From an uncultured candidate division Zixibacteria bacterium (lineage in GTDB: Bacteria > Zixibacteria > MSB-5A5 > SM1-73): 64,000 bases of DNA. Position 1 is the stretch's first letter. Each line of letters begins with the position of its first letter. Under the pieces are notes generated by a model, which saw only the letters and a program-made list of their open reading frames with translations, was not told the origin of the DNA and did not search any database. Location: contig CAIVRH010000014.1 in assembly GCA_903908285.1 (NCBI GenBank), forward strand, positions 57,991 to 121,990. The letters run 5' to 3'. Below, one piece after another: positions 8,847 to 56,226 of the stretch. Position numbers and translations under genes: made by a program.

Positions 8847-11537
8847 TCATTCACAAGGTGCCGGTCCGCTTTTGAAAAGATAGTTGATTAAGGAGATCAC
8901 ATCTCCAACGTCCACTATCCCATCACAATTGGCATCACCAACGGTCAAAGGATAAGGCGGAATGCCGTTTTTGTAAAGATAGTTGGTCAGAAAAACGACA
9001 TCCGATATATCTACGGAACCGTCACCATTGACATCACCAGGAATATAATAAAGAGTGTCACTGTTGTTGATTGCGAACATAAGCTCCCATACTGCCATGG
9101 GACGCTGGTACTGGTTCGGATATCCGGAGGAGATATCCTCTCCTTCTTTCGGCTCCGATTTCTCATCGGCGAGGGTGTGATCATTTCTCCAATTTGAAAC
9201 AAAATTGGGGCGGGGACTATATCCTCCATCCCGCCAGGCCTCGGGAGTGTTGAACCAGTAAGCCAGATGATTTGCGACATATACCGGATAGTAGGCTCCA
9301 TAGGCGGTATTCAGCGCCTCGTTGATCAAACCCGAACGATACATCATGGCGGCCAGGTAATAAGTGGTTCCCACCCAGTATTCATAAGATTCCCGTTCAC
9401 CGCTGGGAACAGTTGCACCGCTGGGCATTCTCTCCAATTTAGCACCGTAATTCGAATTAGGAGCTACATTGACATTATATACCTTTCTCATGTGCGAGGT
9501 CAGCTTCCAGCGGGGCAGAATGTCGGGCAAACCGTATTCCTCGCAGTAGCGCTGACCACACAGGGCATCGCTGAAGACGGCAGTGGTATAGCTGCTTTTA
9601 GTATCGATATGGTAATAAAGTCCAGCGGTGTCCCACAGCTCTGCATCCAGATTTCTCCGAGCCACCTCCAACCAGGCTTGTACTTCCCCCCTTACCGGTT
9701 TGTTCAAAATGGCAGCCATGGTATCCATTGCTTCCAACGCACCTACCCAGAATCCGCCGTCGTACATATCCGTTCCCCACATGCCCAGACAGTCATGAGC
9801 GTTGTCATATCCTTTAGATTCCGGCAGTGAATCTTTGGGTTCATCTTCACAATCATAATCCTTCATAAACTGATATGTGCTCTCTATGGCGGGCCAAACA
9901 TAGTTTAAAAAATCGACATCATTAGAGAGAGAAAAATATCTCCAGCATTGTTGAATGAACTTACTGGAATTGTCGATCAAGACGTGAATGTGACCGCTGT
10001 CACAGGGAGCCAGCCGGTTCTCGTAACCATGCGGGCTCAGCACAAAGAACGGATCTCCATGATCGCAAGCCTCACCGGAAAAATCTCTGGGCGAACCGAT
10101 CTCCGGCGAGGTTTGGTGGGGAACGGAGGGATTGCACTGGTCATAATATAAAACATAATCCGCATGACATCTTAACAGGTCTCTTTCCATCTCCGGCCAG
10201 AATCTGGCAAAAACCACCGAACTATAATGGCCCACGTTGATATTGCCGGATAAAGTGTACGCCTGGGATTCCATGATGAAATTTTTGTGATCTTCCGGAT
10301 GCAGACCCATGAATTCCTCGGGATAGCCGGATCTTAATCCCGATTCCCAAAAAGACCCGCCGAACTGGTTATAATACAGTTCATTGAAAGCCGCACAGAT
10401 GAGCCAATCCGGGTAGCGGTTGTCGTCAATATATCTGGACATCCAAGCATCGATTTGCGCCTCCCAGACCGGATAGTTTTGGAGGGCTTCTTGGGCTATC
10501 TGGAAGGAATTGTCACTTGAAGTATCGAAATATTCGCAATACCTTTTCCACCACTGTGTGGAGTGTTCCAATCCGAAGATGTTTTTGAATTCGACTACCG
10601 GAAAATCCCAGGAAAGCACCAGTGGCACTGTTATTTTTTCTCCGGGAGCCAGCACTGCCTTTACCGCAATGGCGGAAGCAGAATCGAGGGAGTTGATGTT
10701 GTTTGACAATATCCCATCATCGGAGAATTGGTTCCAAATATCCGAACCGTCCCCCCCTCTATCCCAACTGGCATAGGAAACCGTCACTCTTTCGGTAGCT
10801 TGGGTGGCAATGCACCATTCGGAATTTTCAGTTTCAACCGTATTGGAAGGGTTATTTGCCTTTAACACGATTCCTATATTTCCGGAATCCGAAACCAAGG
10901 TATTGGAAAAACCGGTTCTGACTCTCTTCCCGCCATTAAAAGGAGGATTAGGCCAGGTAAACATGACTGAAACTTCAGCAATTTCCGAAGTGGGATTGGA
11001 AAATTCAAATTGCCAGACCGCTACCGGATAGGAGGTTTCCCGATAATTATTGGGTATGATCGGACTAAAAAACTCAGAAGATACGTCACACTTGAAGCAG
11101 TTATAAACACACCACCCTTTGGGCTGGAGCGCATAATAGGAGCCTTCGCCTTGAGCCATTTTATTCCAGGCCGGCATCATCGTATCCCGGGAGAGACATT
11201 TGACCTTTTTCCCCCCCTCGCATTCTTCGTAAATATGGAAAGCTCCCTCCTTCAGCCAGGTACTGCTGTATTCTCCGACTTCATCCGCCCAGGGTCCAAA
11301 AGAGCCGCTGATATTATACATGAAAGCGCCGGCGCCGAATCCTCCCAGAACTATACCTCTCTTGGGACAATTGCTCTGACAACCGGTCGGAACGTCACCG
11401 ATGGTCCTTTGCCATGCTCCTCTTGGTATCTCCAATGTTTTCCGGACATCCGCAGCAATATCGGTAATCCAAAATGAAAACAGAAGCATTACGAAACCAT
11501 ATATCAACCAACTGTGGCATATCCGATTATAGCGCAT
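8847..11537 (-). CDS. Secreted glycoside-hydrolase-like protein (GH116/DUF608-like (alpha/alpha)6 family) with C-terminal type-I dockerin
   Basis: N-terminal hydrophobic signal. RGIVLGGFGAGAFMYNISGSFGPW resembles the GH116 N-terminal PLGGIGTG motif. C-terminus GDVNGDGSVDISDVVFLTNYLYKNG...GDANCDGIVDVGDVISLINYLFKSGPAPCE is a duplicated dockerin Ca-binding repeat. Confidence 0.65.
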   Translation of the reverse strand: MRYNRICHSWLIYGFVMLLFSFWITDIAADVRKTLEIPRGAWQRTIGDVPTGCQSNCPKRGIVLGGFGAGAFMYNISGSFGPWADEVGEYSSTWLKEGAFHIYEECEGGKKVKCLSRDTMMPAWNKMAQGEGSYYALQPKGWCVYNCFKCDVSSEFFSPIIPNNYRETSYPVAVWQFEFSNPTSEIAEVSVMFTWPNPPFNGGKRVRTGFSNTLVSDSGNIGIVLKANNPSNTVETENSEWCIATQATERVTVSYASWDRGGDGSDIWNQFSDDGILSNNINSLDSASAIAVKAVLAPGEKITVPLVLSWDFPVVEFKNIFGLEHSTQWWKRYCEYFDTSSDNSFQIAQEALQNYPVWEAQIDAWMSRYIDDNRYPDWLICAAFNELYYNQFGGSFWESGLRSGYPEEFMGLHPEDHKNFIMESQAYTLSGNINVGHYSSVVFARFWPEMERDLLRCHADYVLYYDQCNPSVPHQTSPEIGSPRDFSGEACDHGDPFFVLSPHGYENRLAPCDSGHIHVLIDNSSKFIQQCWRYFSLSNDVDFLNYVWPAIESTYQFMKDYDCEDEPKDSLPESKGYDNAHDCLGMWGTDMYDGGFWVGALEAMDTMAAILNKPVRGEVQAWLEVARRNLDAELWDTAGLYYHIDTKSSYTTAVFSDALCGQRYCEEYGLPDILPRWKLTSHMRKVYNVNVAPNSNYGAKLERMPSGATVPSGERESYEYWVGTTYYLAAMMYRSGLINEALNTAYGAYYPVYVANHLAYWFNTPEAWRDGGYSPRPNFVSNWRNDHTLADEKSEPKEGEDISSGYPNQYQRPMAVWELMFAINNSDTLYYIPGDVNGDGSVDISDVVFLTNYLYKNGIPPYPLTVGDANCDGIVDVGDVISLINYLFKSGPAPCE

Positions 11538-12078
11538 AAGAGTGGATCCTAAGATTATTCGACATTATAATCTTTGCCATATAATATAATCAATCTGTCG
11601 CAAAAAACAAGCAATATTTATCTGGGGGAAATATGCTTACCGGATTTACCTAAAAGAACCGAACAACTGACCGGGAAGATTATTCCCGCTTTCCATCAAA
11701 GGTCATCTGTCATTATCAACGTTGACCGGTGAAACTTTCTTCGGTACAGCTTTGTGCAGAATCAACAACAACTGAAACTCCTCATTTTATTTTATGCTTG
11801 ACAAATTGTAACCGGGCTTCTTACATTCCTGAAAGTTATGCAAAACTTATCCCGGAGCTTATACCGCAGTGAGGAGAACTCACCTTGATCCTGCCAAAAA
11901 TTAATCAAAAACTGCCCCGGATGGGATCGCGGTTTATCTATCTAATGGGATATATACCCACCAGACGATAGAATATTTAATATATCGACGGGAAAAGCGT
12001 AAATATTGAAATGGATGGTAACAAGTATTTGATCGTGCAAAAACAGAGAGGGAATCATTTTTTCCTACAGGACCATGA

Positions 12079-16536: not shown

Positions 16537-18630
16537 CTAATCTTCAGATATTGATACTTTGACTGCTATACAGACTCCTCCACGAGGATCTTCATCACAG
16601 AATGATACCATACCGGCTTTTACCGCGGCATCCGTGGTGGAGGTATAAGTAAAGCCGGTAGCTTCCCCATATTCATTGGTGTAATCGCTTCCGGTAACCG
16701 TTCCACCGGAGGTGTTTGTGGGATCAGCTACCACGTAATGCCCCCCTAACGGATTACCATATCGATCCCGGATGATTACCACCACCGGAACCGTGGCGCC
16801 ATGGGGGATGGTGGCTTCGATGTCTATATCGCAATTCTTGCTGTAAGTCGGTCCGGTTAAGTAGGTAATATAGACGGAATTGGATACGAATCCCGATTTG
16901 GCGGAGAGAACGTTGATCACCCCGATTCCGTCATCCTGGTCGGAATAAGTCATGGAATAATCTTGAGCCAAAACCTCGCTTACCAATTCGGTTTCATACA
17001 AGCTGGCATGACATCCATCCGTGGTCGTTCCGGAGACAACCGATCCGAATTTCGTTTTCATCTCCACCGGAGTAAGATTAAGGACAAAATTATCATTCAC
17101 ATCCAGCACCTCCACCACCACATCCCCCTTGGAGATTCCGTCGGCCAGAAGAGAATGAGGGTAAGTGAGGAAAGTGACACTGGCTGGCGGTCCGGATACG
17201 ATCAATATGGTGGTATCGGCTATCATGCCGTTTTCTCCCCAGGTCTCCGCCCATATTTTGGCTTTGCCGTCGTTTCGGGGATCAGCCGAAAGGTAGGTGG
17301 AATAAGCACAACCATTCTTGGTATTGTCGCAGCAGTGAACCGATCCCTCTTCGGTTCCGAAATGAACCGAGGTGGAATCGGGCACGGGATTACCATACAC
17401 GTCCACTACGCAGGCACATAATTCGGCTTCTACACAATTGACGTCCCACCCCCGGATATTACAGGGAGTGACCCCGACGGAGATATCGTACGGAGGTCCG
17501 GAACAGATGGAAACCAAAGTGGAGTAAGAAAGAACCATTCCGGTTTTTGCCCGCACCCTCACCGGACCCGATTTGGTGCCGCTGGAAAGAGTAACGGTTG
17601 CCTCGCCGTCGGAATTGGTCTTGACCGTGATGGAGTCGGCAACTACTCCATTTAAACCCTCGCCGCCATCCGGACCGTTTATTATATAGAACTCCACCGG
17701 AAAGTCAGCTCCCACCCGGTTGCCATAGTCATCGTAACAAACCGCTCGGATCTGGGTGGCTTCCATCCCACCGGTACCCTGTACTTGTATTTTCGCCTCA
17801 TCCGGCGTGAGAACGATATATGCTACGCTGTCGGTGGGGATCAATAGCAGGTCGGCATCCTCCTGCAGGAAGTTTCCTTCCGGTTCCGCGGTAACTTTTA
17901 TGTAACTGGTTCCGGTTCGAAGCCCGGCCACATAAGTTACTGTAACTTCTCCATCGTTGGTAAGGGCGTAAGCAGGTATGAAACCGATCTGGTTCCAATT
18001 GCCATCATGGTTCACATCGAACTCCAACTGATCGATTCCAGTAGTGAAGTAACCATCCAGATCGACATCCACGAATTTTTCTCCGGCGGCAAATTTAACC
18101 ACCGTCCCGTTGGGTGCCAGATTGCCAAAAGAATCGCTCACCGAGACCGTTACCTCGCTGGTAGAGATCCCATCAGCAGGCAACAAGGAGGGGATGATTT
18201 GAATTTGCAGGGGCTTGGCGGTGGTACCGGAGGAAACCACGTCCACCTGGATACTTTGGGCAGCGGTTCCGGCCAAGCTGACTTCAATGGTGGCAGTACC
18301 AAAATCGGTGGCTTTAAAGATGGTAGCCGAAGTGCCGTTTGCATCGGTGGTATCCACCGAAGGAACGCAGTACCCGATAGTGCCGGGGTTCACCGAAAAA
18401 GCAACCTGGACTCCGGAGACTGCCCGGTTGGCATCATCCTCCACCACCACATCCACCACTGCTGTCTGCCCCTTTTGCACCTCCGAAGGTACGACGGAAA
18501 GTGATTTCACCATAATCACCTTCTGGTTATCCTTGGTCGTATTCTTGGAGCACCCCAAAAGCAAAAGCGAAACTAAAATCATACTCCCCACTAACCAATA
18601 GATAGAATGGGAAAAACATTTCTTTTCCAT
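16537..18630 (-). CDS. Lipoprotein with tandem bacterial Ig-like (Big_1, invasin/intimin-type) domains
   Basis: Start chosen at MEKKCF, giving lipobox LLLLGCSKN. Repeated modules with VVDVVVEDDANRAVSGVQVAFSV...TDANGTSATIFKATDFGTATIEV patterning. The longer upstream ORF extension has no Shine-Dalgarno or signal peptide. Confidence 0.65.
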   Translation of the reverse strand: MEKKCFSHSIYWLVGSMILVSLLLLGCSKNTTKDNQKVIMVKSLSVVPSEVQKGQTAVVDVVVEDDANRAVSGVQVAFSVNPGTIGYCVPSVDTTDANGTSATIFKATDFGTATIEVSLAGTAAQSIQVDVVSSGTTAKPLQIQIIPSLLPADGISTSEVTVSVSDSFGNLAPNGTVVKFAAGEKFVDVDLDGYFTTGIDQLEFDVNHDGNWNQIGFIPAYALTNDGEVTVTYVAGLRTGTSYIKVTAEPEGNFLQEDADLLLIPTDSVAYIVLTPDEAKIQVQGTGGMEATQIRAVCYDDYGNRVGADFPVEFYIINGPDGGEGLNGVVADSITVKTNSDGEATVTLSSGTKSGPVRVRAKTGMVLSYSTLVSICSGPPYDISVGVTPCNIRGWDVNCVEAELCACVVDVYGNPVPDSTSVHFGTEEGSVHCCDNTKNGCAYSTYLSADPRNDGKAKIWAETWGENGMIADTTILIVSGPPASVTFLTYPHSLLADGISKGDVVVEVLDVNDNFVLNLTPVEMKTKFGSVVSGTTTDGCHASLYETELVSEVLAQDYSMTYSDQDDGIGVINVLSAKSGFVSNSVYITYLTGPTYSKNCDIDIEATIPHGATVPVVVIIRDRYGNPLGGHYVVADPTNTSGGTVTGSDYTNEYGEATGFTYTSTTDAAVKAGMVSFCDEDPRGGVCIAVKVSISED

Positions 18631-19206: not shown

Positions 19207-21453
19207 TTATCCTGAACAGGGGGCGGATCCGCTTCTGTAAAGGTAATTGAGCAAGAAAATCACGTCCGTGATATCAACCAGGGTGTCCATGTTGACATCC
19301 CCCAATCCTATCGGATCCGGCGGCGAGCCTGCTTTGTACAGGTAATTGATAAGATAGATTAAATCCGCTACATCAATCTGTCCGTCCCGATTAGCATCCC
19401 CGCACGCAAAGGAGATATCCACTTCTTTCTGAGAAGGGATGTAGTTCTGTTTGGTAACGGTTACGTACATATACCCTTCCGTCGAGGAGGGGGAAGGTGT
19501 AAAAGTGACATCTCCACCGGCATCGGTAAAAGCCGTTAGATAGACCTCGTTGGACTTCCACAAACAAACATACGCCTGGTCTACCGGAACACCGGCAGTA
19601 GCATCCTCCACATGCACCGGAAAGGATGAACTTCCCCCGGGAGCAGTGGAAGCACAGGTGACCGTAAAACTATCCAGCGAATCAGTCCAAACCGGCATCT
19701 CCGGCTCGCCCAAGAGATTGAACTCCCATTCACAGTATCTCATATAATTATCGGTATTGGCATAATGATGCTTGGCATCCGCTAAGGTTTGACCCAGGTG
19801 GTGCATGCTGCGGCTGAACAGGCTCACCCACCACTGCTTGTCCAAGCCGGCAGAAAGACTAAAGGGTTGTCCGGAATAGAATAGCCCGTTACGGGTATTG
19901 CCGTTGAATGCCACCCCAGCTTGATTGGAGTTGTACATGACAAAACGTTCCGAAATACAATCACTGGCATCCATATGATTGACTTCACAGGCGAGGGAAA
20001 CTAATATGGACAACTGGTTATCGTTGGTCAGCGCATCCACATCGCTAATACCGATGGACCAGGTATGGTGATAGTCGCCGGTACACATAACGGTGATATT
20101 GCCATGGTCGGCGTGATTTACCAGATTTTGACCGGCATTGAGGGCGTTGATGACCGCGGTTCTGTGGTTGGTAGATTGGCTGTCATAGACTTTGGTTACG
20201 TTAAACTGGGCTGGAATATACGCGTCGATACTGTCCTTTAACATTTCCTCCCGGGTAGAGCCATCCACATCCATTCCGATAAGTAAAACATCCAATGAAA
20301 AATCGGTTCGAGGAGGATCTTTTTCATACTTAAGAACCTTGTTTACGAAGAGAGTAACCTCGGCAGTGCTCCCGACTGTAGCTCTACCCACGAAAACCTC
20401 GTTGGTCCAATCATTGTCATAGTCGGAGTAATACTGATCGCTGGGCGCGCTTTGGTCGTAATATAAACGGTAGCCAAACGGAACCGTCGCAGTTTCACCA
20501 CCGAGGAGAAAATAAGTGGTTCCCCAGTTAGTGGCAGCATCCATGACAAAGGCACGCACTTTCTGGGTGTCTGCACCGGTGTAGTTGGCGTAGATCCATG
20601 CCTTGGTTATGACCGTATCTCTTACCCCTTTCTGGTTATGCCAATCGACCAAAGGTTGAAAGGAGGAAGCATAAGCGGAGTCTGTAATGATGACATGGGC
20701 AAAAGGTCCTCCCGGGGGTATCATGGAAGTAGCCATTTTCAAACCTTGGACCAATTGAACTGCCTCGGGGTTATTCACCATTCCCTTTACCATCTGCTCG
20801 TAGGTTCTCCTATCACTTTCCGGAAGTTTGGATGAAAGGTAATCTCCGCATTCGTATCCGCTAACTCCTTCGATCTCGATGGTGATGGAGGAAAAGTAGC
20901 TAAGCTGTTTTTGGCTGGGAATGTAACTGAGAGGAAATATCTCCACCACTGCCATGCTTTGACCGGCTAAATCCGTCTGGTTGACAAACTGCACTAATTC
21001 TGCAGGATATGGCTGGGAAGAAGAATAGGTCTGGGCGTCAGGTGGAATGAAATCTGCATTGGTTGGGGATTGGCTGGTTAGCAACGGAAGTTGGGCTGGA
21101 TAGATATTATACACACCAGGGATTTGCACTTCGGTCTGGCTAACCACCCGTACACTATTAACCGCCATTCCGGAGGGGAGGGCAATTATGATCTCCTTGG
21201 TTGGCAACATCGGTTTTCCCAGCTCTGAGAGCCAGTTACCGTCTTTGAGATTTACCATATCATAATCATTCAGCTGGCTGAATGAAAAGTCGTCTTTAGA
21301 AAACTGGGCAGTATACCTAACGGAAAGTGCATCTTTACCGTCGGCAGCTACGGCTTGTGCCGAGACAAGATCAACCCACAATAGAGTGGATACAAACAAC
21401 AACAGCAGAGAAACAAAAATCGCCCCGGTAGAAAATGATATGGATTTATTCAT
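19207..21453 (-). CDS. Gingipain-like cysteine peptidase (family C25) with C-terminal type-I dockerin
   Basis: Start at MNKSISF after an AAGGAGA Shine-Dalgarno, with signal peptide. Catalytic His/Cys context HADHGNITVMCTGDYHH...LVSLACEVNHMD. C-terminus GDANRDGQIDVADLIYLINYLYKAGSPP...GDVNMDTLVDITDVIFLLNYLYRSGSAPC. Confidence 0.7.
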   Translation of the reverse strand: MNKSISFSTGAIFVSLLLLFVSTLLWVDLVSAQAVAADGKDALSVRYTAQFSKDDFSFSQLNDYDMVNLKDGNWLSELGKPMLPTKEIIIALPSGMAVNSVRVVSQTEVQIPGVYNIYPAQLPLLTSQSPTNADFIPPDAQTYSSSQPYPAELVQFVNQTDLAGQSMAVVEIFPLSYIPSQKQLSYFSSITIEIEGVSGYECGDYLSSKLPESDRRTYEQMVKGMVNNPEAVQLVQGLKMATSMIPPGGPFAHVIITDSAYASSFQPLVDWHNQKGVRDTVITKAWIYANYTGADTQKVRAFVMDAATNWGTTYFLLGGETATVPFGYRLYYDQSAPSDQYYSDYDNDWTNEVFVGRATVGSTAEVTLFVNKVLKYEKDPPRTDFSLDVLLIGMDVDGSTREEMLKDSIDAYIPAQFNVTKVYDSQSTNHRTAVINALNAGQNLVNHADHGNITVMCTGDYHHTWSIGISDVDALTNDNQLSILVSLACEVNHMDASDCISERFVMYNSNQAGVAFNGNTRNGLFYSGQPFSLSAGLDKQWWVSLFSRSMHHLGQTLADAKHHYANTDNYMRYCEWEFNLLGEPEMPVWTDSLDSFTVTCASTAPGGSSSFPVHVEDATAGVPVDQAYVCLWKSNEVYLTAFTDAGGDVTFTPSPSSTEGYMYVTVTKQNYIPSQKEVDISFACGDANRDGQIDVADLIYLINYLYKAGSPPDPIGLGDVNMDTLVDITDVIFLLNYLYRSGSAPCSG

Positions 21454-21903: not shown

Positions 21904-22604
21904 TACCGGCTGATATTACTGATGTTACTGGCCTTTCTGATGATCGTTTCAATTTCCCTCCAGATATCTCACAGCATGAGATAAGTCATTCATAACAAAG
22001 GAATAGCGGATTTGCCATGCCGGTGTTTCTGATGTTTCTGATGTTTCTGACGTTTGTTTTTGATTTTTTTCATTTTTCGAAAGAGTGATTGAGGTTTAAG
22101 GCTCTCCATCATAGGCGGAACCGCTTATGGCGGAAAGGGTTCAAGGATTCAAATTTAAATTTATAAGTACATATCAGAATAAAGGTTTTTAACATATAGG
22201 AGATCCTCGACCAAAGGGAGAGATTCCCGAATACTTTTCGTCAACATTGACTCTCACCTATAAGGGGGATATCATTTTCAACACCGAAGTGGTATCAATT
22301 TTGTAATTGGGGGTAGGGAAGGAAAAGGGTTAGGTTTTTCCATTTGATCATATTGTCAGGAGCCTTAGGGCTCCTGACCGACCGGCTACCGTCTGAAAAC
22401 AGAAGAAAAGAATTATGCAGGCAAGTAATTTATGCGGTCTATTTCAAGCCTTCCTATAGTTTGCCTTCTCCCTAAACCAGGGAGAATAGTTGATTACATG
22501 AGAAATTCAATTGATTACCCCCTTTTGTTGATATGATGTGAAGATATGATTAAAGTTACATTAAGCCTCCTTTGTTCAAATGTTTGGGAATGAATAATGT
22601 TGTT

Positions 22605-23697
22605 TTATTTCTTTTGTTTCGATGGCTTAGATTTAGTAATAGGTATTTTCTCACTCACCCATATATCACCGCTCCCTACCCCGCCAGGCCTGCCGCCAAC
22701 AAAATAAAGTCTTCTTCCATCAGCAGTGATATAAGACCATCCGGCTCCAATTGAATCATTTATCTGCGGTCCTAAACGTCTTGCTCTACCCCAACCAGTG
22801 CCAGTCCACTGAGAAACACATATATAATAAGTATGGTTAGGGCCTCCCCATCGGGTGAAATAGATCGTTTGGTTGTCTGCTGTCACGCTGGCATGTTTTT
22901 CATACAGGGTAGAATTAACCGTGGTATCTAACCAGACCGGTGTGTCCCATTCTGAACCATTCCATTCCGAAACCCAAATGCCCCAACCATTGCTAAAGTA
23001 AAGTTTCGAGCCATCCGGAGATACAAAGAGGCTCCGCTCCGGTGGCGTTGATGATCGGTCCCAAATTGTTTAAAACACCCCACTCATGGTGAACACTATC
23101 CCAGGTGGAAACCCAGATCTCCCATCCTCCATTTCCGCCGGGCCTGGCAAACTCAACGCAATAAAGCTGCTTGCCGTCCGGTGAAAGACAAGGTCCTAAG
23201 TCTTCAAGCATGGTGTTCACATTAGGTCCGCAATTCTGCGGCTCCGACCAGGAACCGGATACGCTGTCCCAGAAAGAATACCAGATGTCGTTGTTGCCAT
23301 AACTTCCGGGTCGGTTTGATGACCAGACCGCCATCCTTCCATCCGGGGTGGTGCGAAATGATTCCTCGCCATTATGACTATTAATCGGCAGTCCCAGGTT
23401 CACCGGCTCGCTCCAGCCACAATCCACTATATCCGGCTTTTTTCCTTCTTTAAAAAGATAGTCAATCAAATACACCACATCCCCCACATCAATCACACAG
23501 TCGGCGGTGGGGTCGCCACACTCATAAACCATCGGTGGCGGTCCATTCTTAAAAAGATAGTTGATCTCATACACCACGTCCCCCACATCCACCAAGCTGT
23601 CATCATTCACGTCGCCCGGCAACTGTGCCTGGGTGACAGATATTGACACCAAAAGGATGAAACTGAAGAGCAACAAGGAATTGACCAATCTCAGCAT
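22605..23697 (-). pseudogene. Frameshifted paralog of the dockerin-PD40 protein at 55075..56226 (signal peptide, N-terminal dockerin, TolB-like PD40 beta-propeller)
   Basis: ORF 22993..23697 (signal, GDVNDDSLVDVGDVVYEINYLFKNG dockerin, PD40 repeats) and ORF 22605..22886 align to the N- and C-terminal parts of the 55075 protein. The middle (SPDGSKLYFSNGWGIWVSEW) is readable only in the frame of the downstream ORF. That implies a single 1-nt indel near 23035-23050. Confidence 0.55.
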
Positions 23698-24009: not shown

Positions 24010-25551
24010 ATGCGTTCTCTAACGATTATAATTTGCACTATCCTCATTCCCTGCTCTTTTTATCATGCACGATCAACCGAAATCCATGCCGGATCAGAGG
24101 CGACTCCCCAGATACTCTGGTGGTACGATTTGAATGCTCCCTCTTTCGGGTCATCCGCGGTTGGTGATATCGATCATGATGGAAAATTGGAAATCGTTTT
24201 CGGAACCTATTTCAATGACGAATATATTTATGCCTTGAATGCCGACAGCGGCACTCTTCTGTGGAGATATAACACCGGGGGCTGCAATGATGCTTCTCCT
24301 GCAATAGCTGACGTCGACTTAGACGGTGCTTTAGAAGTGATCGTGCCCGCATCCTCCCCTTGCAGGATTTATTGTTTCAATGGAGCCAACGGAGCAGTCA
24401 AATGGTCAATTTCCACCAGCTCAAACTCCATCGACTCTCCGCCAGCGGTCGCAGATGTGGATAACGATGGTAAACCAGAAGTGATTTTTGGCACCTTCTA
24501 TGGCTACGTTTACTGCCTTAATGGTGAGGATGGAAGCCAATGCTGGCGCATCAACCTGGGAACCAGCAGTTACATTCAGTCCGAACCTAATATCCTCGAC
24601 GTTAATCAGGATGGGCAGTTGGATGTGGTAGTGGCTCAATGGGCCGGCAATAACCGGGTCTATGCCTTACGAGGAAACAATGGCTCCACTTTGTGGTATT
24701 CCGACTTGCCCAACGATGATATGTATCATGGCGGTTCCTTTGCGGATATTGACGAAGATGGCAAACCGGAGATCGCCATTGGCTGTTACGATAATAATCT
24801 TTATGTGTTAAATGGTGAAGATGGCAGTCTCAGGTGGCAATATACCGCACCTTATTACATCGGTGCACCTACCTCCATGGCTGACCTCAATAATGACGAT
24901 CACCTGGAGATAGTCATCGCTTCCTACAATATCATAAGAGCTTTATCTCATACCGGGAGCATGCTCTGGAGCTATACTGCGGGTGGTGGTTCATTTCGCG
25001 GATCTGCCATCGCGGATATCGATGGCAACGGCATTCTCGATGTCGCATTCGGTGCAGACGATGGCATTCTTAGAGTGTTAAGAGGTGATAGTGGTCAGGT
25101 AGTCTGGACTTATAATCTGCAAGCCCATTATGGAAGAACTTTTGAGATGGACCATGCGCCGGTGATTGCAGATTTTAATAATGATGGCAAACTGGATATT
25201 TTCATCATAGGCGGATATGGAACTTCCTCTCCGCCCAGTTCGAACCATGGGCGGGCTTATGCGCTTTCTGCCGGAAATGGCACAGGTCCCGGTTGGCCTA
25301 TGTTTCGACACGATCTCAGGCACAGCGGTAACTTTTATGGTTTCGTCTCTTTCATCCGGGGTGACGCTAACGGCGATAGTATTGTAACTGTCAGCGACGT
25401 GGTTTATCTGATTAACTATCTTTTCCATGGTGGCACACCGCCTGAACCGTTGGATGCTGGAGATGCCAATTCCGATCACACGGTTGACATTACGGATGTG
25501 GTATATTTGATCAACTACCTCTTCAAAGGTGGTCCACCTCCATGCAAATAA
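24010..25551 (+). CDS. Secreted FG-GAP/integrin-alpha-like beta-propeller protein with C-terminal type-I dockerin
   Basis: GGAGG Shine-Dalgarno and signal peptide MRSLTIIICTILIPCSF. Eight blades of D(I/V)DxDGKxE(I/V) (DIDHDGKLEIV, DVDNDGKPEVIF, DFNNDGKLDIFI and others). C-terminus RGDANGDSIVTVSDVVYLINYLFHGGTPP...GDANSDHTVDITDVVYLINYLFKGGPPPC. Confidence 0.75.
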   Translation: MRSLTIIICTILIPCSFYHARSTEIHAGSEATPQILWWYDLNAPSFGSSAVGDIDHDGKLEIVFGTYFNDEYIYALNADSGTLLWRYNTGGCNDASPAIADVDLDGALEVIVPASSPCRIYCFNGANGAVKWSISTSSNSIDSPPAVADVDNDGKPEVIFGTFYGYVYCLNGEDGSQCWRINLGTSSYIQSEPNILDVNQDGQLDVVVAQWAGNNRVYALRGNNGSTLWYSDLPNDDMYHGGSFADIDEDGKPEIAIGCYDNNLYVLNGEDGSLRWQYTAPYYIGAPTSMADLNNDDHLEIVIASYNIIRALSHTGSMLWSYTAGGGSFRGSAIADIDGNGILDVAFGADDGILRVLRGDSGQVVWTYNLQAHYGRTFEMDHAPVIADFNNDGKLDIFIIGGYGTSSPPSSNHGRAYALSAGNGTGPGWPMFRHDLRHSGNFYGFVSFIRGDANGDSIVTVSDVVYLINYLFHGGTPPEPLDAGDANSDHTVDITDVVYLINYLFKGGPPPCK

Positions 25552-27600: not shown

Positions 27601-27617
27601 TCACAGAGAGGTGTAAG

Positions 27618-41511: not shown

Positions 41512-41553
41512 AAGCATTTTACTACTATGCATTCATTCTTCAAGGGGGATCAG

Positions 41554-44500
41554 ATGAAAGGAAAATCACTTCTTAAATGTGTTTTATTGGTTTTGATTGG
41601 AATTACGTTTTTTTATTCTACATGTGTAGCTATTATCTACGTTTGTATAGACCCCGGACATGGCGACAATAAGCATGGATCTGAAGGTCAACATTTCCAC
41701 AGTTTAGAGAAAAATGCCAATCTTAAAGTCGGATTGGCATTAAGAGATTCTTTGAACACACTTGGATATCCAGATTCAACAGTAAGAGTGATTATGACTC
41801 GAACTGGTGACACAAACCCTAGTTTCCAACAACGAGCTGCCTGTGCTATGGGTGATAATCCTGATAGTGCAAGAGCAAGTCAGTTCATTATTATTCATCA
41901 TAACGGCGATACTTCTGATGTTACTAATTACATCATGTCTTATGTTTGCACTTATGTGGATCAAATTCCTGGTGACACTACTGAGAGGGACATAAGCATA
42001 AATCTGGTAGACAGGGTTCAGGCAAAGATGGTTGATATTTTGGGATATAAAGAGGCTTCTCAGAGACTAAAAGATAGCTGTTGGTACGTCTTAGAGTATA
42101 CTAGCATGATTTCTGCTTACCCAGAAGTATCTTTTATGACATGTAGGAAGATAGATTCTCTTTTTCATTACGATACTACCTATGCAAGAAAAGAAGCAGG
42201 GAGTATATACCGTGGATGGCGTGCATATATGGGAGATGATCCCATTATAGTCGTAAGGAATCACTTTGACGGAGGTTATGTTTTGGTGGATAGTATCTCC
42301 CGTGAGTCCCCCTTTCACGGAGCTTGGATGAATGGTGAATCACATCGCATCGGAGCTTACAATCAAACTGGCTATGGTGCAGATGGCTACTATCGATGGT
42401 ACGAGTTTTGCCGATGGCAAGACCAAATATCCCAGCAAGAGCGGAATATCTATGTTGGTAATGACGATGAGGTATATACAGCTTATTTCTCTTGGGACAA
42501 TTCAGGCTCTCATCCCTATTACATAATAGTGCAAAGTCCAAATGGAGATGAGAGTTACGGCATGGGACAAATCATGCCCATTTGTTGGTATGCCGACCCG
42601 GGTATTATCGACCCTGATGGAAATTGTAATGGAACTTTTCTGGATATTTATCTTTCAAGAAACGGAGGTCAAAACTATGATGAAATTATTCAATCGGATT
42701 GGCCAACTTCCGGAAACGCATACGGCTGCTATGAATACTGGCATGTCACAGGTCCCCCGTCTGGTCAATGTAAAATCAAGATATTAGCACATGATGATAT
42801 TTGTAACAATGATTATGATGTCTCAAATTATAATTTTGCTATATTGTGTGCTCCCCAGCCTAATTCTCCTTCTAATCTGATTGCAACGAATTATGGATGT
42901 GATGCACGCATTTCCTTATACTGGCAAGATAATTCTACAACTGAGGATGGTTTCAATATTTATCGGGATGGGCAACTTACCGGTTCCGTGGGAGCAAATG
43001 TTACCACGTTCACCCAAACGGGACTTCATCCGGGTCAAAGTTATTCTTATTATGTCAAAGCACAAAGACAAGGGTGTGAATCCGCACCCACCAACACGGT
43101 GAGTTCGGTTCCGGGACTCCTTACCCCAACCGCTCCTACGAATCTTCAGGTGGTGAACGTTGGGCCGTGCGAATTCCGAGCCACATGGCAAGACAATTCA
43201 TCCAACGAAGATGGTTTTGTCATAAAAAATGGAACTTTTTTACATGCAAGGGTTGATCCCAACATTACCAGCTATCAGGGATACTATTTCCCGGAAGCAG
43301 AATGGAAGCAAACTGGTGATTTCTACGTGTATGCTTATACCGACGATCCTGGCAGTGGTTGTAAATCTTACTCCAATCATGTGAACCTTGACCCACCTGG
43401 TGGTTTAATGCTCTGGCCTACTGACATTCAATTCCACGGCTCTGATTGCTATTGGTATATCACCTGGCATAAAAGAGACAACTACGACCGGTGCCAGGTC
43501 AAAATCAAGTACACCGATTATACTACCACCACCGGCTGCGATGAACAATACAACTTTTGGTATACCCAGCTTTCATCCCCGGATAGTTTCCGGTTTCTGC
43601 CCAGTGTGGGCGATCATTGTTATCAAGCGCAGGTTCGTGGGGGCAAGTGGGTGGATTGTGGGTCCTACGGAGATATGAAATGGTCGGAATATCCCCCACC
43701 TACTTACTGGGTGCGGATTATCTGCAACAATCCACCCTGGGGTTGCCCTTACCTTTTTGTACCCGATGGAGAAAAATACGTTGGCGAGAATACCATTTTG
43801 GCGCCGGCAGAAATGTCAACGGAGAGGGACTTAGACATCAACGATTACTATCTCATACGTCAATCGTTAACTCCAATAGATAGTCTGTATAAGCTTCGTA
43901 TAGCTGAATTCGAAAGTGAACACTCCTTCTTTGACCAAGTAAAGCTTTTGGCGGTAGATCATGATCTTAGCACGAAAGCGGCGGTGTCTGCAAAAGGCGA
44001 AGTATTCGTTTATAATCCCACCGACTATTTCGAGCCTATCTCCTGCAGTGATAGAAACGGGGTAAATAAAGACTCCCTCCTCCAATTAGAACCCGAAGAT
44101 AAAGTTTTTCTTTCTGGATCGGGTTCTCTGACTTTAAATTTCGGATCGATTCCCTCGGATACCGGAAGTCTGATTATGCTCGCTCCCTGCTGCGGGAGCC
44201 CCAAGTTCCCCAAGGCTATTACCAAGATTGCATCCGGGGCAGAACCAACCCAGCAAATCGGCTTGTTGGTTGAGACGGAGGGGAATGGGGTTTGGCAGAA
44301 AGTCGACTCGCTTCCGCCAAGAATGGAACAGCAGGAAGTTCTGGTAAATCTCTCCGATCACACCTCCCCGGAGCGGGCGCTAAAAATAAAACTGAGCTGG
44401 GACGAAAGAGGTTATACCTTTTCCAAAGTTCGCTGCTTGCGGGCGCAAAGGTTTAATCAACCGGTATCTCTACCGTTGATTTCCGCTTACCATTCCTCGG

Positions 44501-44958
44501 CCGGTGAGGTGAAGCAGAAACTAACCTCGAATGACAATGACTATGCGGAAGTTTTGCCCGGACAAAATATCGATTTATCTTTTTCCTATCAGCCAGTCGA
44601 GCCGAATAAAGTCAGGGATTTGGTATTCGAGTGTAACGGGTATTATTTCACGGAAAATACGGCTCCGGACAGCAGCAGTGATACCAGCGAGATCTCGCAG
44701 AATTATCCCAACCCTTTTAATCCGCAGACTCAGATCAAATTTACCGTAATCAAAACTGCACCGGTAAATCTGGCAATTTATAATATTCTCGGACAAAAAG
44801 TCGCCACTTTAATGGACGAAACATTGCCGGTGGGAAAACATGTGGTAATTTGGAACGGCGAAGACGATTCCGGTCAAAAAGTGGCAAGCGGTATTTATTT
44901 CTATCGTCTTCAAGTAGGGGAGTTTAATGAAGTAAGGAAGATGATACTGATGAAATAA
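41554..44958 (+). CDS. Giant secreted protein: N-terminal Amidase_3-like domain, central region, two FN3-like modules, C-terminal T9SS sorting domain
   Basis: AAGGGGGAT Shine-Dalgarno and signal peptide. Amidase motifs CIDPGHGDNKHG, LEKNANLKV, FIIIHHNGDT. FN3-like NLIATNYGCDARISLYWQDNSTTEDGFNIYRDG and NLQVVNVGPCEFRATWQDNSSNEDGFVIKNG. CTD ISQNYPNPFNPQTQIKFTV...IYNILGQKVATLMDE...GIYFYRLQVGEFNEVRKMILMK. Confidence 0.75.
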   Translation: MKGKSLLKCVLLVLIGITFFYSTCVAIIYVCIDPGHGDNKHGSEGQHFHSLEKNANLKVGLALRDSLNTLGYPDSTVRVIMTRTGDTNPSFQQRAACAMGDNPDSARASQFIIIHHNGDTSDVTNYIMSYVCTYVDQIPGDTTERDISINLVDRVQAKMVDILGYKEASQRLKDSCWYVLEYTSMISAYPEVSFMTCRKIDSLFHYDTTYARKEAGSIYRGWRAYMGDDPIIVVRNHFDGGYVLVDSISRESPFHGAWMNGESHRIGAYNQTGYGADGYYRWYEFCRWQDQISQQERNIYVGNDDEVYTAYFSWDNSGSHPYYIIVQSPNGDESYGMGQIMPICWYADPGIIDPDGNCNGTFLDIYLSRNGGQNYDEIIQSDWPTSGNAYGCYEYWHVTGPPSGQCKIKILAHDDICNNDYDVSNYNFAILCAPQPNSPSNLIATNYGCDARISLYWQDNSTTEDGFNIYRDGQLTGSVGANVTTFTQTGLHPGQSYSYYVKAQRQGCESAPTNTVSSVPGLLTPTAPTNLQVVNVGPCEFRATWQDNSSNEDGFVIKNGTFLHARVDPNITSYQGYYFPEAEWKQTGDFYVYAYTDDPGSGCKSYSNHVNLDPPGGLMLWPTDIQFHGSDCYWYITWHKRDNYDRCQVKIKYTDYTTTTGCDEQYNFWYTQLSSPDSFRFLPSVGDHCYQAQVRGGKWVDCGSYGDMKWSEYPPPTYWVRIICNNPPWGCPYLFVPDGEKYVGENTILAPAEMSTERDLDINDYYLIRQSLTPIDSLYKLRIAEFESEHSFFDQVKLLAVDHDLSTKAAVSAKGEVFVYNPTDYFEPISCSDRNGVNKDSLLQLEPEDKVFLSGSGSLTLNFGSIPSDTGSLIMLAPCCGSPKFPKAITKIASGAEPTQQIGLLVETEGNGVWQKVDSLPPRMEQQEVLVNLSDHTSPERALKIKLSWDERGYTFSKVRCLRAQRFNQPVSLPLISAYHSSAGEVKQKLTSNDNDYAEVLPGQNIDLSFSYQPVEPNKVRDLVFECNGYYFTENTAPDSSSDTSEISQNYPNPFNPQTQIKFTVIKTAPVNLAIYNILGQKVATLMDETLPVGKHVVIWNGEDDSGQKVASGIYFYRLQVGEFNEVRKMILMK

Positions 44959-52178: not shown

Positions 52179-52253
52179 CGGGATGTATATAGATAGGGCG
52201 GGAATTGGTCAGACCATCTCTCGCTTATCACAAGTGCCTAATCCGGTGGAAAT

Positions 52254-55036: not shown

Positions 55037-55074
55037 ATAAGTGGAAATTACATTATTTAAACAGGGATTTAGCT

Positions 55075-56226
55075 ATGAGACGGATAATCTTTCTGCTTGT
55101 AATTGTCTTTTTGCTGTGGTGGATCGATCCGGCTTGGGCAGCTGCCTATCAAGCCGGAGATGCCAACGGTGACAGCGTAGTGGACATTGGGGACGTGGTG
55201 TATGAGATCAACTATCTTTTCAGGAGCGGACCCTCGCCGGTGTTCTACGAATGCGGCGATCCTACCGGGGACTGCGTAATCAACGTGGGTGACGTGGTAT
55301 ACCTGATCAACTATCTCTTCAAAGCGGGCACAACCCCGCAGATAGTGGAATGCGGCTGGAGTGAGCCGGTCAACCTGGGATCACCTATCAATAGTACTAG
55401 AGGTGATGGTTCAATATCTTTTTCATTTAACTTTAAGAAACTTGTATTAGTCTCAGACAGAACTGGAACACATGGTGATGAAGACATCTGGTATATTGTG
55501 AGGGATAGTGTATCACAAGCATGGTCACAACCGATAAATTGCGGCAACAACATAAACACGGACATTCGAGATCCGTATCCCTGTATCTCCGGAGACGGGA
55601 ATAAGATTTATTTTCTCTCCTGGAACAGGCCCGGGGGGTATGGAGGGTGGGATATTTGGGTTTCAAGCTGGGACAGCTCTGCCGGAATTTGGGGTGTGCC
55701 CGAGAACCTGGGAGCGAACATTAATTCCGGAGGGGTCTGGACTCCGTTCGTAACCTTGGATGATACCAAGCTGTATTTCTCCTCCACCCGCTATCCGGGG
55801 GGGATATTCGTCTCGGAGAGAAGTGGAGGTGACTGGGGTGTTCCGGTCTGGCTGGGTCCTAACGTGAATATGTATTTTAACGAAGAAGATCCCAGCGTAA
55901 CAGTGGACAACCAGACGCTTTATTTTGTCCGGTGGGACTTGGAAGACTGCGGAGAAGGATTGCCGCACATCTGGGTTTCCTACTGGACCGGGACGGAATG
56001 GGGACCTTCTTATATGCTGCCATCCGGCATAAACTATCCATGTGCCGGCGCATCGGACCCCTGGATAACGCCGGACGGATCCAAGCTTTATTTCAGCGCA
56101 GGAATAAGACCGGGCGATATGGGTTTGGGTGATATTTGGATGTCTGAGCGGATTCCCGTAGAGAAAGGTAAGAGATTCATTAACCGCGATCAGAAAGTAA
56201 TAATAAGCAGTGGAACCGACCGATAG
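55075..56226 (+). CDS. Secreted protein with N-terminal type-I dockerin followed by TolB-like PD40 beta-propeller
   Basis: Signal peptide MRRIIFLLVIVFLLWWIDPAWA. GDANGDSVVDIGDVVYEINYLFRSGPSP...GDPTGDCVINVGDVVYLINYLFKAGTTP. PD40-like repeats (ISGDGNKIYF, TLDDTKLYF, ITPDGSKLYF). Confidence 0.7.
   Translation: MRRIIFLLVIVFLLWWIDPAWAAAYQAGDANGDSVVDIGDVVYEINYLFRSGPSPVFYECGDPTGDCVINVGDVVYLINYLFKAGTTPQIVECGWSEPVNLGSPINSTRGDGSISFSFNFKKLVLVSDRTGTHGDEDIWYIVRDSVSQAWSQPINCGNNINTDIRDPYPCISGDGNKIYFLSWNRPGGYGGWDIWVSSWDSSAGIWGVPENLGANINSGGVWTPFVTLDDTKLYFSSTRYPGGIFVSERSGGDWGVPVWLGPNVNMYFNEEDPSVTVDNQTLYFVRWDLEDCGEGLPHIWVSYWTGTEWGPSYMLPSGINYPCAGASDPWITPDGSKLYFSAGIRPGDMGLGDIWMSERIPVEKGKRFINRDQKVIISSGTDR

What the first reader, a model, noticed from the sequence alone, without database searches (positions are those of the whole stretch)
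8847..56226. Dense set of dockerin-bearing secreted proteins in a T9SS organism, with no cohesin partner visible
Seven proteins in 64 kb carry the duplicated Ca-binding dockerin repeat (GDxNxDGxVDxxDVVYLINYLFKxGPxP). They are the GH116/DUF608-like glycosidase (8847-11537), two C25 gingipain-like peptidases (19207-21453 and 31788-34016), an FG-GAP propeller (24010-25551), a dockerin-only protein (27618-28175) and two PD40 propellers (22605-23697 and 55075-56226). In the PD40 propellers the dockerin is N-terminal, directly after the signal peptide, whereas it is C-terminal in the others. The same window has two bona fide T9SS-CTD cargoes and a FadL/PorV-family barrel. This suggests two parallel surface-retention routes: CTD/T9SS attachment and dockerin docking. 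Dockerin-tagged gingipain-type proteases and TolB-like propellers are not standard cellulosome cargo. That points to a non-cellulolytic, possibly proteolytic or predatory cell-surface assembly whose cohesin scaffold must be encoded elsewhere or be unrecognisable.
Basis: partly seen in the sequence, partly recalled or inferred. Interest (0 to 1): 0.7.

Follow-up and report, generated by a model that had tools for sequence, protein, structure and literature searches.

The report
Dockerin protein cluster with hidden cohesin
A Zixibacteria chromosome segment encodes many secreted peptidases, glycosidases and propellers tagged with dockerin modules, and the "missing" cohesin partner is a small protein that Pfam does not detect, encoded just outside the window; this is a non-cellulosomal cohesin-dockerin system of a kind already proposed for a related phylum.

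Summary
Seven ORFs at the stated places carry a duplicated Ca-binding dockerin: six pass Pfam Dockerin_1, and the seventh is a frameshifted paralogue just below threshold. No cohesin is detectable inside the window.

The organism is a member of Zixibacteria (FCB group). Two neighbouring proteins carry a T9SS type A sorting domain above its curated cutoff.

In 13 of 15 evaluable Zixibacteria species this gene is followed directly by an M14 peptidase-dockerin gene. The 67-kb region holds nine dockerin genes.

Its homologues carry either a T9SS sorting domain or a dockerin, so it is cargo.

Dockerin-tagged C25 peptidases with a T9SS-anchored cohesin scaffold were already proposed for Cloacimonadota in 2021. 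My verdict is a new member of a known kind. Binding and cellular location remain inferred.

The parts
8847..11537 (-). Secreted GH116-family glycosidase with a C-terminal dockerin (module about 8850-9047)
   Evidence: Pfam Glyco_hydr_116N 198.9 bits, DUF608/GH116 catalytic region 182.5 bits, Dockerin_1 38.7 bits. Repeat hits at 8889-8939 and 8988-9038.
19207..21453 (-). Gingipain-like C25 peptidase (propeptide, catalytic domain, Ig domain) with a C-terminal dockerin
   Evidence: Peptidase_C25 191.8 bits, Propeptide_C25 44 bits, Peptidase_C25_C 27.7 bits, Dockerin_1 29.1 bits. Repeat hits at 19252-19302 and 19351-19401. The H-G and A-C catalytic motifs are visible in the translation.
22581..23697 (-). 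PD40 propeller with an N-terminal dockerin, a paralogue of 55075-56226, disrupted by one frameshift near 23030
   Evidence: tblastn gives two pieces in different frames, 58% and 46% identical to the paralogue. PD40 39.1 bits, Dockerin_1 19.4 bits, below cutoff. The dockerin is 72% identical to that of the paralogue.
24010..25551 (+). FG-GAP/PQQ-like beta-propeller with a C-terminal dockerin
   Evidence: FG-GAP_3 122.3 bits, Dockerin_1 46.6 bits. Repeat hits at 25360-25410 and 25459-25509.
25609..27600 (+). Trimeric fibre-like protein with a C-terminal intramolecular chaperone; its stop overlaps the start of the small dockerin gene
   Evidence: Peptidase_S74 33.9 bits. NCBIfam Bdello_MAT_N 36.6 bits, below its cutoff of 60. 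ORF coordinates overlap at 27597-27600.
27597..28175 (+). Small secreted protein: signal peptide, low-complexity linker, dockerin only
   Evidence: Dockerin_1 35.0 bits and no other family. phmmer hits solved dockerins.
31788..34016 (+). Second C25 peptidase with a C-terminal dockerin
   Evidence: Peptidase_C25 221.5 bits, Propeptide_C25 65.7 bits, Dockerin_1 42.2 bits. Repeat hits at 33825-33875 and 33924-33974.
55075..56226 (+). PD40 propeller with an N-terminal dockerin directly after the signal peptide
   Evidence: PD40 43.3 bits; Dockerin_1 24.0 bits at residues 27-81. The same protein occurs on the 250-kb ENA scaffold.
4803..6674 (+). Beta-helix protein with a T9SS type A sorting domain (neighbouring T9SS cargo)
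   Evidence: Beta_helix 41.4 bits. TIGR04183 27.5 bits against a cutoff of 23.
6750..8654 (+). Lipoprotein with a GH42/GH164-like TIM-barrel glycosidase fold; a cargo-type module, not a cohesin scaffold
41527..44958 (+). Amidase_3/fn3 protein with a T9SS type A sorting domain (neighbouring T9SS cargo)
   Evidence: Amidase_3 71.8 bits, fn3 37 bits. TIGR04183 38.1 bits against a cutoff of 23.
28579..29970 (+). FadL-family outer-membrane barrel; not shown to be PorV
   Evidence: Toluene_X 135.4 bits. PorV_fam 53.5 bits against a cutoff of 90; T9SS_OM_PorV 17 bits against 250.
16537..18630 (-).
   Evidence: Big_1 94.3 bits in 4 stretches. Cohesin profiles A1 and A3 give best E values of 4.7 and 0.15. 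Not modelled.

Best explanation
The window is part of a Zixibacteria chromosome region of about 67 kb that encodes nine dockerin-bearing secreted proteins. Seven are in the window and two lie just to its left. They form the cargo set of a non-cellulosomal cohesin-dockerin system.

Each cargo protein is exported by a Sec signal peptide. Its duplicated Ca-binding dockerin then plugs into a cohesin. The two repeats are nearly symmetric and much alike across all nine proteins, so one specificity is likely.

The most likely receptor is a phylum-conserved stand-alone cohesin of 216 aa: signal peptide, one cohesin-fold domain, and a short Lys/Glu/Pro-rich tail. It is encoded 7.8 kb left of the window, between thiC and an M14 peptidase-dockerin gene. 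Pfam does not detect it.

Relatives of this cohesin carry a T9SS sorting domain in place of the tail, or occur as two to four cohesins followed by a sorting domain. The system is therefore built for the cell surface, and in relatives it is tied to T9SS.

The net effect would be a cell-bound set of peptidases (two C25, one M14), glycosidases (GH116) and binding propellers for feeding on proteins and glycans. It is not a cellulosome.

Shown here: the dockerins, the cohesin fold, the homology chain to Pfam Cohesin, the conserved gene neighbourhood, and the interchange of sorting domain and dockerin on one cargo family.

Inferred: that this cohesin binds these dockerins, that the complex is on the cell surface, and how the tail holds it there.
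For: - Dockerins: Pfam and solved-structure homology. The nine modules are 39-72% identical. Their Ca ligands are conserved, and the helix D-[VL]-[VI]-[YF]-L-[IM]-N-Y-L-[FY]-[KR] is nearly invariant in both repeats.
- Organism: all named homologues and 18 GTDB loci are Zixibacteria.
- Homology chain: the family profile finds 335 cluster representatives. In long relatives, Pfam Cohesin hits the same stretches: P0135 residues 1677-1813, P0142 residues 771-906 followed by a dockerin, and P0146 at 77 bits. Of 80 short relatives, 5 pass Pfam Cohesin and 15 carry Por_Secre_tail.
- Neighbourhood: thiC, cohesin, then M14-dockerin occurs on the window's own scaffold and in three other contigs. In GTDB genomes, 13 of 15 evaluable loci have the dockerin ORF 130-830 bp downstream of the cohesin, and all 15 have a dockerin ORF within 5 kb.
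- A Zixibacteria protein, KPL02814.1, has two cohesin-profile matches (one scoring Pfam Cohesin), Big_9 and a T9SS sorting domain.
- The 6750-8654 module family occurs with a lipobox, with a T9SS sorting domain, or with a dockerin.
Against: - No binding test was possible.
- The 216-aa protein has no Pfam or NCBIfam hit. Neither of its profiles hits a solved cohesin by sequence. The cohesin call therefore rests on a model of moderate overall confidence (mean pLDDT 62.5, with the tail and the C-terminal strands low) and on transitive homology.
- The protein has no lipobox, no T9SS sorting domain and no transmembrane segment, so surface retention is unexplained.
- The dockerin proteins have no known signal for crossing the outer membrane.
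- The cohesin and the M14-dockerin gene are about 420 bp apart, so an operon is not shown.
- Only about 92 kb of the genome could be read, so other cohesins may be the real receptors.
- Neither T9SS machinery genes nor a sorting-domain-bearing cohesin were seen for this organism.
Confidence: 0.6

Rival explanations
1. The dockerins do dock on cohesins, but the real receptors are multi-cohesin scaffoldins with a T9SS sorting domain encoded elsewhere in this genome. The small stand-alone cohesin would be an accessory or regulator, for example a cap or a dedicated partner of the M14 peptidase only.
For: - Zixibacteria SM23_73_2 encodes an 814-aa protein with two cohesin-profile matches (one scoring Pfam Cohesin) and a T9SS sorting domain. 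About 19 homologues of 660-820 aa were found.
- Three such genes lie in tandem in L028.
- Ca. Stygibacter has a 3755-aa cohesin scaffoldin with a sorting domain (PMC8542988).
- The small cohesin has no evident anchor.
Against: - None of these scaffoldin homologues could be traced to this sample; P0298 and P0307 come from other assemblies.
- That family was found far less often (79 hits, about 19 full length) than the small cohesin (121 close homologues in a constant gene context).
- The small cohesin is the one that is syntenic with dockerin genes across the phylum.
Confidence: 0.3
2. The dockerins are orphans. They bind no cohesin and act as Ca-dependent stabilising or ligand-binding modules, and the neighbouring cohesin-fold protein does something unrelated.
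For: - Dockerin-like modules occur outside cellulosome producers (Peer et al. 2009, as cited in PMC6487960 and PMC8542988). From my own recollection of Peer et al. 2009, which I could not open, many genomes carry dockerins without a recognisable cohesin.
- No binding data exist here.
- Eight of the nine dockerins have an extra Cys close to the end of the module, which suggests a self-contained stapled fold.
Against: - A cohesin-fold gene lies next to a dockerin gene in 13 of 15 species.
- 36 of the 149 listed cohesin-family representatives (150 were listed; the top-ranked one was left out of this count) also carry this type of dockerin in the same protein.
- The helix faces are strongly conserved in both dockerin repeats across unrelated cargo, as expected for a shared protein partner.
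Confidence: 0.1
3. The cohesin-dockerin contact forms in the periplasm and serves export. Dockerin proteins, which lack any outer-membrane targeting signal, would ride through T9SS bound to a cohesin that carries a sorting domain, or would stay in the periplasm as a complex.
For: - The dockerin proteins have only Sec signal peptides.
- Cohesin relatives often end in a T9SS sorting domain.
- PD40 propellers and Amidase_3 proteins are typical periplasmic families.
- From my own knowledge, not tested here: T9SS moves folded proteins.
Against: - This organism's own cohesin has no sorting domain.
- To my knowledge no piggy-back export through T9SS has been described.
- C25, M14 and GH116 enzymes with propeptides fit extracellular digestion better.
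- This is pure inference.
Confidence: 0.08
4. This is an ordinary cellulosome for plant cell-wall breakdown whose scaffoldin and cellulases lie elsewhere.
For: Dockerin_1 modules, one GH116 glycosidase and a GH42-like lipoprotein are present.
Against: - None of the nine dockerin proteins is a cellulase or hemicellulase of the usual families. Three are peptidases and three are propellers.
- No CBM3 or multi-cohesin scaffoldin lies in the 92 kb read.
- The organism is a diderm FCB bacterium, not a clostridium.
Confidence: 0.02

Closest known systems
Cellulosome-like complex proposed for Ca. Stygibacter (Cloacimonadota), Williams et al. 2021, PMC8542988
   Same: An uncultured FCB-group diderm with T9SS-type sorting domains. 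Signal-peptide enzymes carry C-terminal dockerins, including a gingipain-like C25 peptidase and glycosidases. The proposed role is surface-bound breakdown of polypeptides and polysaccharides. The proposal is in silico only.
   Different: Stygibacter has one 3755-aa scaffoldin with tandem cohesins, CBM2/CBM3 and a sorting domain. Here the only cohesin found is a 216-aa stand-alone protein with a charged tail, no CBM and no sorting domain, and Pfam does not detect it. The cargo here also includes FG-GAP and PD40 propellers, two of them with the dockerin at the N terminus, and an M14 peptidase in a conserved gene pair with the cohesin.
Non-cellulosomal cohesin and dockerin modules (Peer et al. 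2009), including the Archaeoglobus fulgidus pair (PDB 2xdh) and the autonomous cohesin of Ruminococcus flavefaciens (PDB 4n2o)
   Different: Sequence identity to these is only 9-11%. The Zixibacteria family has its own conserved features: invariant C37 and C80, a GGIP motif, and a Lys-rich tail. It also has a fixed chromosomal context. Details attributed to Peer et al. come from citing papers and my own recollection, because the paper itself could not be opened.
Clostridial type I cohesin-dockerin pair (C. thermocellum CipA Coh2 with Xyn10B dockerin, PDB 1ohz)
   Different: The host is a diderm. There is no SLH or sortase anchoring, no cellulases and no CBM3. Most dockerins here have an extra Cys close to the end of the module.
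T9SS cargo with a type A C-terminal sorting domain (TIGR04183), as on gingipains of Porphyromonas
   Same: C25 peptidases and other hydrolases destined for the cell surface in FCB bacteria. Two such cargoes lie in the window.
   Different: The seven dockerin proteins have no sorting domain. In homologous cargo families the dockerin occupies the place of the sorting domain, and relatives of the cohesin are the proteins that carry the sorting domain.

Membership tests
Dockerin type I (Pfam PF00404) | Score at or above the Pfam gathering cutoff (22.9 bits) | tested here: met
   Six of seven window proteins score 24.0-46.6 bits. The frameshifted PD40 gene scores 19.4 bits. The two genes left of the window score 31.7 bits or are listed with PF00404.
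Dockerin type I (Pfam PF00404) | Two tandem ~22-residue F-hand segments with Ca ligands at positions 1, 3, 5, 9 and 12, each followed by a helix | tested here: met
   The alignment of all 18 repeats shows D-x-[NT]-x-[DS]-x-x-x-[DNT]-x-x-D followed by the helix. One of the 18 departs from the pattern: repeat 2 of the gene left of the window has an extra residue before the last Asp.
Dockerin type I (Pfam PF00404) | Ca-dependent binding to a cognate cohesin | not testable with these tools
   No complex prediction or assay was available.
Cohesin (Pfam PF00963), for the 216-aa protein left of the window | Score at or above the Pfam gathering cutoff (24.1 bits) | tested here: not met
   No Pfam hit even at E<=10. 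No NCBIfam hit. No hit to solved cohesins with the A1 or A3 profile.
Cohesin (Pfam PF00963), for the 216-aa protein left of the window | Cohesin beta-sandwich fold | tested here: met
Cohesin (Pfam PF00963), for the 216-aa protein left of the window | Sequence homology to accepted cohesins | tested here: met
   Met only through intermediates. The family profile hits P0146 at E 8.4e-21 and P0135 at 1.7e-27. In both, Pfam Cohesin covers the matched regions, at 77 and 24.8 bits.
Cohesin (Pfam PF00963), for the 216-aa protein left of the window | Binds a dockerin | not testable with these tools
   The only support is conserved adjacency to a dockerin gene in 13 of 15 species.
Cellulosome | Scaffoldin with several cohesins and a cellulose-binding module | tested here: not met
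   None in the window or in the 28 kb of flanks read.
Cellulosome | Dockerins carried mainly by cellulases and hemicellulases | tested here: not met
   The cargo is two C25 peptidases, one M14 peptidase, GH116, FG-GAP, two PD40 propellers, a dockerin-only protein and a cohesin-like-plus-dockerin pseudogene.
T9SS type A cargo (TIGR04183) | C-terminal sorting domain above the cutoff of 23 bits | tested here: not met
   Of the seven dockerin proteins, three (C25 at 31788, PD40 at 55075 and the small protein) were scanned with NCBIfam and have no TIGR04183 hit. None of the seven has a Pfam Por_Secre_tail hit. The criterion is met by the neighbours at 4803-6674 (27.5 bits) and 41527-44958 (38.1 bits).
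PorV (T9SS outer-membrane shuttle) | NCBIfam PorV_fam or T9SS_OM_PorV above cutoff | tested here: not met
   The protein at 28579-29970 scores 53.5 bits against 90, and 17 bits against 250. It is a FadL-family member by Toluene_X at 135 bits.

The most novel reading that the evidence does not exclude
Zixibacteria as a phylum use a stand-alone cohesin, invisible to Pfam and carrying a Lys-rich tail, as a common receptor. It would tether a peptidase-dominated set of dockerin proteins (C25, M14, GH116, propellers, fibre adaptor) to the outer surface of a diderm cell. That would be a protein-degrading counterpart of the cellulosome. Its anchoring, whether by charge to LPS or exopolysaccharide or by hand-over to cohesins bearing a T9SS sorting domain, would differ from every characterised cohesin-dockerin system.
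Probability: 0.25. Interest if true: 0.7.

Novelty: new member of a known kind. Interest (0 to 1): 0.45.

Why it matters
Non-cellulosomal cohesin-dockerin pairs are widespread, but almost none has a known role, least of all in diderm bacteria.

This result gives a concrete pair to test: a 216-aa cohesin and the dockerin of the adjacent M14 peptidase, plus eight further dockerins from one locus. It comes from an uncultured phylum for which the held literature mentions neither module.

It also shows that 'dockerins without cohesin' in metagenome bins can be an annotation gap. Of 80 short relatives of this cohesin, only 5 are recognised by Pfam.

If binding is confirmed, the pair would add an orthogonal Ca-dependent connector for surface display on Gram-negative hosts. 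It would also help explain how sediment Zixibacteria feed on detrital protein.

Tried and rejected
- An exact 40-mer from the window was not found in GTDB representative genomes. The organism was instead identified from names on protein homologues and from a profile-based scan.
- Pfam at E<=10 on every unannotated window ORF gave no Cohesin hit.
- phmmer of the 216-aa protein, and hmmsearch with its narrow (A1) and broad (A3) family profiles, against PDB sequences gave no cohesin. Direct sequence evidence is therefore lacking.
- The A1 and A3 profiles run against six-frame translations of the window found no second cohesin.
It has a glycosidase fold.
- phmmer of this candidate and of the Big_1 lipoprotein against PDB gave nothing useful.
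- I tried to find a sorting-domain-bearing cohesin scaffoldin from the same sample through homologues of KPL02814.1. The two ENA candidates came from other assemblies.
- The gene downstream of the M14-dockerin gene is not conserved between species, so I dropped it as a candidate anchor.
- Peer et al. 2009 could not be opened.
- The Omnitrophota giant-gene preprint mentions dockerins but is not comparable.
- The window has no tRNA and no Rfam family. I saw no integrase and no sign of a mobile island.
- The metagenome scan was not used.

Full report
**Observation.**
- Pfam Dockerin_1 passes its cutoff in six of them, at 24.0-46.6 bits. The seventh, the PD40 gene at 22993-23697, scores 19.4 bits.
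- The small dockerin-only protein aligns with solved dockerins from Ruminococcus and Clostridium.
- The nine modules found in the end, seven in the window and two just outside, are 39-72% identical. They keep the Ca ligands and share a nearly invariant helix, D-[VL]-[VI]-[YF]-L-[IM]-N-Y-L-[FY]-[KR], in both repeats.
- The two T9SS cargoes are real. TIGR04183 scores 27.5 and 38.1 bits against a cutoff of 23.
- The barrel at 28579-29970 is in the FadL family but does not reach the PorV cutoffs.
- No ORF in the window hits Pfam Cohesin, even at E<=10.

**Source and organism.**
- The window is bases 57461-121460 of a 250-kb ENA metagenome scaffold.
- Every homologue that carries an organism name is from Zixibacteria.
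- A profile scan of GTDB genomes returned 18 Zixibacteria loci; some are labelled 'uncultured Ignavibacteria' by their depositors. The nearest is 80-83% identical.
- The held literature has no paper that mentions Zixibacteria together with dockerin, cohesin or T9SS.

**The hidden cohesin.**
- I read the 10-kb flanks of the window. The left flank holds two more dockerin genes and a 216-aa secreted protein with no Pfam, NCBIfam or PDB sequence hit. Its sequence pattern looked cohesin-like to me.
- It has at least 120 homologues of nearly constant length at 50-81% identity.
- They share a signal-peptidase I site, two invariant cysteines, a GGIP motif and a variable Lys/Glu/Pro-rich tail.
- An AlphaFold model built on 35 sequences has a core (residues 36-140) with pLDDT 76-92.
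- Foldseek agrees independently: its top 24 hits are all cohesins.
- The family profile, searched against 1.84 billion cluster representatives, finds 335 proteins.
- Nine long hits were scanned with Pfam. In eight of them Pfam Cohesin is listed at E<=0.01, at or above its cutoff in five; where a full-length match could be compared (P0135, P0142) it covers the same stretch that the profile matched. Seven of the nine have a T9SS sorting-domain hit at the C terminus, and BACON repeats are frequent.
- One of these, KPL02814.1, is from Zixibacteria.
- Of 80 short relatives, 5 pass Pfam Cohesin, 15 carry Por_Secre_tail and 3 carry a dockerin.
- Weakness: neither the narrow nor the broad family profile hits a solved cohesin by sequence. 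The assignment therefore rests on fold and on intermediate sequences.

**Gene neighbourhood.**
- On the window's own scaffold the order is thiC, cohesin, then an M14 peptidase with an InhA-like MAM domain and a dockerin.
- The same order is found in three other contigs whose cohesins are 59-64% identical.
- In GTDB genomes, 13 of 15 loci with enough downstream DNA have the ~725-800-aa dockerin ORF starting 130-830 bp after the cohesin.
- The other two of the 15 have dockerin ORFs 2-4 kb upstream, and several loci have two or three more.
- Some of those upstream ORFs (about 300 or 500 aa) match the broad cohesin profile weakly in their N-terminal part (E 3e-11 to 1e-2) and end in a dockerin. 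Part of that score may come from the signal peptide.
- This genome's own copy of that family has an in-frame TAA where homologues have Gln.
- Altogether the dockerin-rich region spans about 67 kb, scaffold positions 46.4-113.7 kb, with nine dockerin genes, two of them disrupted. It is bounded by ordinary genes on both sides.

- Its homologues occur alone, fused to a beta-helix plus a T9SS sorting domain (about 1100 aa, many examples), or fused to Dockerin_1 (three examples).
- It is therefore cargo. This family shows directly that lipid anchor, sorting domain and dockerin are interchangeable on the same module.
- The Big_1 lipoprotein gives no cohesin signal. It was not modelled.

**Mechanism.**
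- Shown: real dockerins on Sec-exported proteins; a cohesin-fold protein in conserved linkage with dockerin genes; relatives of that cohesin that end in T9SS sorting domains; and interchange of sorting domain and dockerin on one cargo family.
- Inferred: each dockerin binds the small cohesin, and perhaps other cohesins elsewhere in the genome, in a Ca-dependent way. The conserved, symmetric helices suggest a single specificity and a dual binding mode.
- Also inferred: the complex sits at the cell surface, where it concentrates peptidases, glycosidases and binding propellers.
- Unexplained: how the tail holds the small cohesin in place, and how the dockerin proteins cross the outer membrane.
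- The Lys-rich tail recurs in many short relatives. A charge-based hold on LPS or exopolysaccharide is my guess.

**Rivals.**
- The receptors may be scaffoldins with sorting domains elsewhere in the genome. These exist in a related Zixibacteria MAG and in tandem arrays in another metagenome, but I could not trace one to this sample.
- Orphan dockerins are unlikely given the synteny, and given that 36 of 149 family representatives combine this cohesin with this dockerin type.
- A periplasmic or piggy-back export role is possible but purely speculative.
- An ordinary cellulosome is ruled out by the cargo.

**Comparison with what is known.**
- The closest described case is Ca. Stygibacter (Cloacimonadota). 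There, dockerin-tagged GH18, GH57, S8 and C25 enzymes and a 3755-aa cohesin scaffoldin with CBMs and a sorting domain were proposed to form a cellulosome-like complex for polypeptides and polysaccharides (PMC8542988).
- A rumen survey also found that about a fifth of dockerin proteins unrelated to carbohydrate degradation act in protein catabolism (PMC6487960).
- Dockerin-tagged gingipain-like peptidases in an organism with T9SS-type sorting domains are therefore not new.
- Different here: the phylum; a stand-alone cohesin that Pfam misses; its fixed pairing with an M14-dockerin gene; and propellers with N-terminal dockerins.

**Verdict.** I class it as a new member of a known kind, of moderate interest (0.45). 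Its main value is the defined, testable cohesin-dockerin pair, and the lesson that 'no cohesin' can be an annotation gap.

Noticed in passing
L003:19351-20004 (+) = L006:10001-10651; scaffold positions 48990-49640, about 7.8 kb left of window position 1: A conserved 216-aa Zixibacteria protein, annotated 'hypothetical' in every source and with no Pfam hit, has a cohesin fold. It lies between thiC and an M14 peptidase-dockerin gene.
   Followed up: yes
L003:16692-17558 (-), stop codon at L003:17412-17414: A gene of a conserved Zixibacteria family (signal peptide, ~215-aa domain with weak cohesin-profile similarity, C-terminal dockerin ending PGCP) carries an in-frame TAA where five homologues have Gln. 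It is probably a pseudogene. Gene callers report only the 165-222-aa C-terminal part.
   Followed up: partly
window dockerin modules, e.g. 8850-9047, 19210-19410, 25350-25548, 27975-28172, 33815-34013: Eight of the nine dockerins have a Cys close to the end of the module, after the second helix (PCE*, PCSG*, PCK*, TC*, PCS*, GCP*, or CGW in the N-terminal modules). Most have a second Cys, either in the second Ca loop or just before a repeat. This suggests a disulfide clasp that clostridial dockerins lack. The M14 dockerin lacks the terminal Cys.
   Followed up: partly
window 25609-27600 (+) and 27597-28175 (+): A fibre-like protein with a Peptidase_S74 intramolecular chaperone and a weak match to the Bdellovibrio mosaic adhesive trimer N-terminus overlaps, by its stop codon, the start of the dockerin-only gene. 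The small dockerin protein could be the adaptor that docks the fibre.
   Followed up: no
window 37637-44958 (+): A run of three PD40 paralogues without dockerins (37637, 38773, 40504) is interleaved with two Amidase_3 proteins. The larger one (1143 aa) has fn3 and a T9SS sorting domain, plus about 750 aa of unannotated sequence.
   Followed up: no
L003:11797-16503 (+), left of the window: A four-gene set of secreted proteins (162, 171, 283 and 942 aa) has almost no Pfam hits. The 942-aa protein has Ig-like/CarboxypepD_reg domains at both ends and a long Tyr/Ser-rich middle. The set may be a pilus or chaperone-usher-like system.
   Followed up: no
window 51743-52179 (+); L001:6668-7104: A RelB-like/ParE toxin-antitoxin pair sits between the methionine synthase-like gene and the ROK kinase.
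   Followed up: no
window 56654-64000 (+), continuing to L002:21080: A large exopolysaccharide locus (Wza-like exporter, Wzz/GNVR, hexapeptide transferase, DegT aminotransferase, UDP-GlcNAc 2-epimerase, then flippase, Wzy, glycosyltransferases) starts right after the PD40-dockerin gene.
   Followed up: no
L028:702-7998 (ENA ERZ27254851, another organism): Three tandem genes of 760-790 aa each combine Pfam Cohesin (weak) with a T9SS sorting domain. This looks like an array of surface-anchored cohesin proteins.
   Followed up: partly
window 45212-47671 (+): An 819-aa protein combines CBM9-like and DUF5916 domains (306.8 bits). It has no NCBIfam name and its function is unknown.
   Followed up: no
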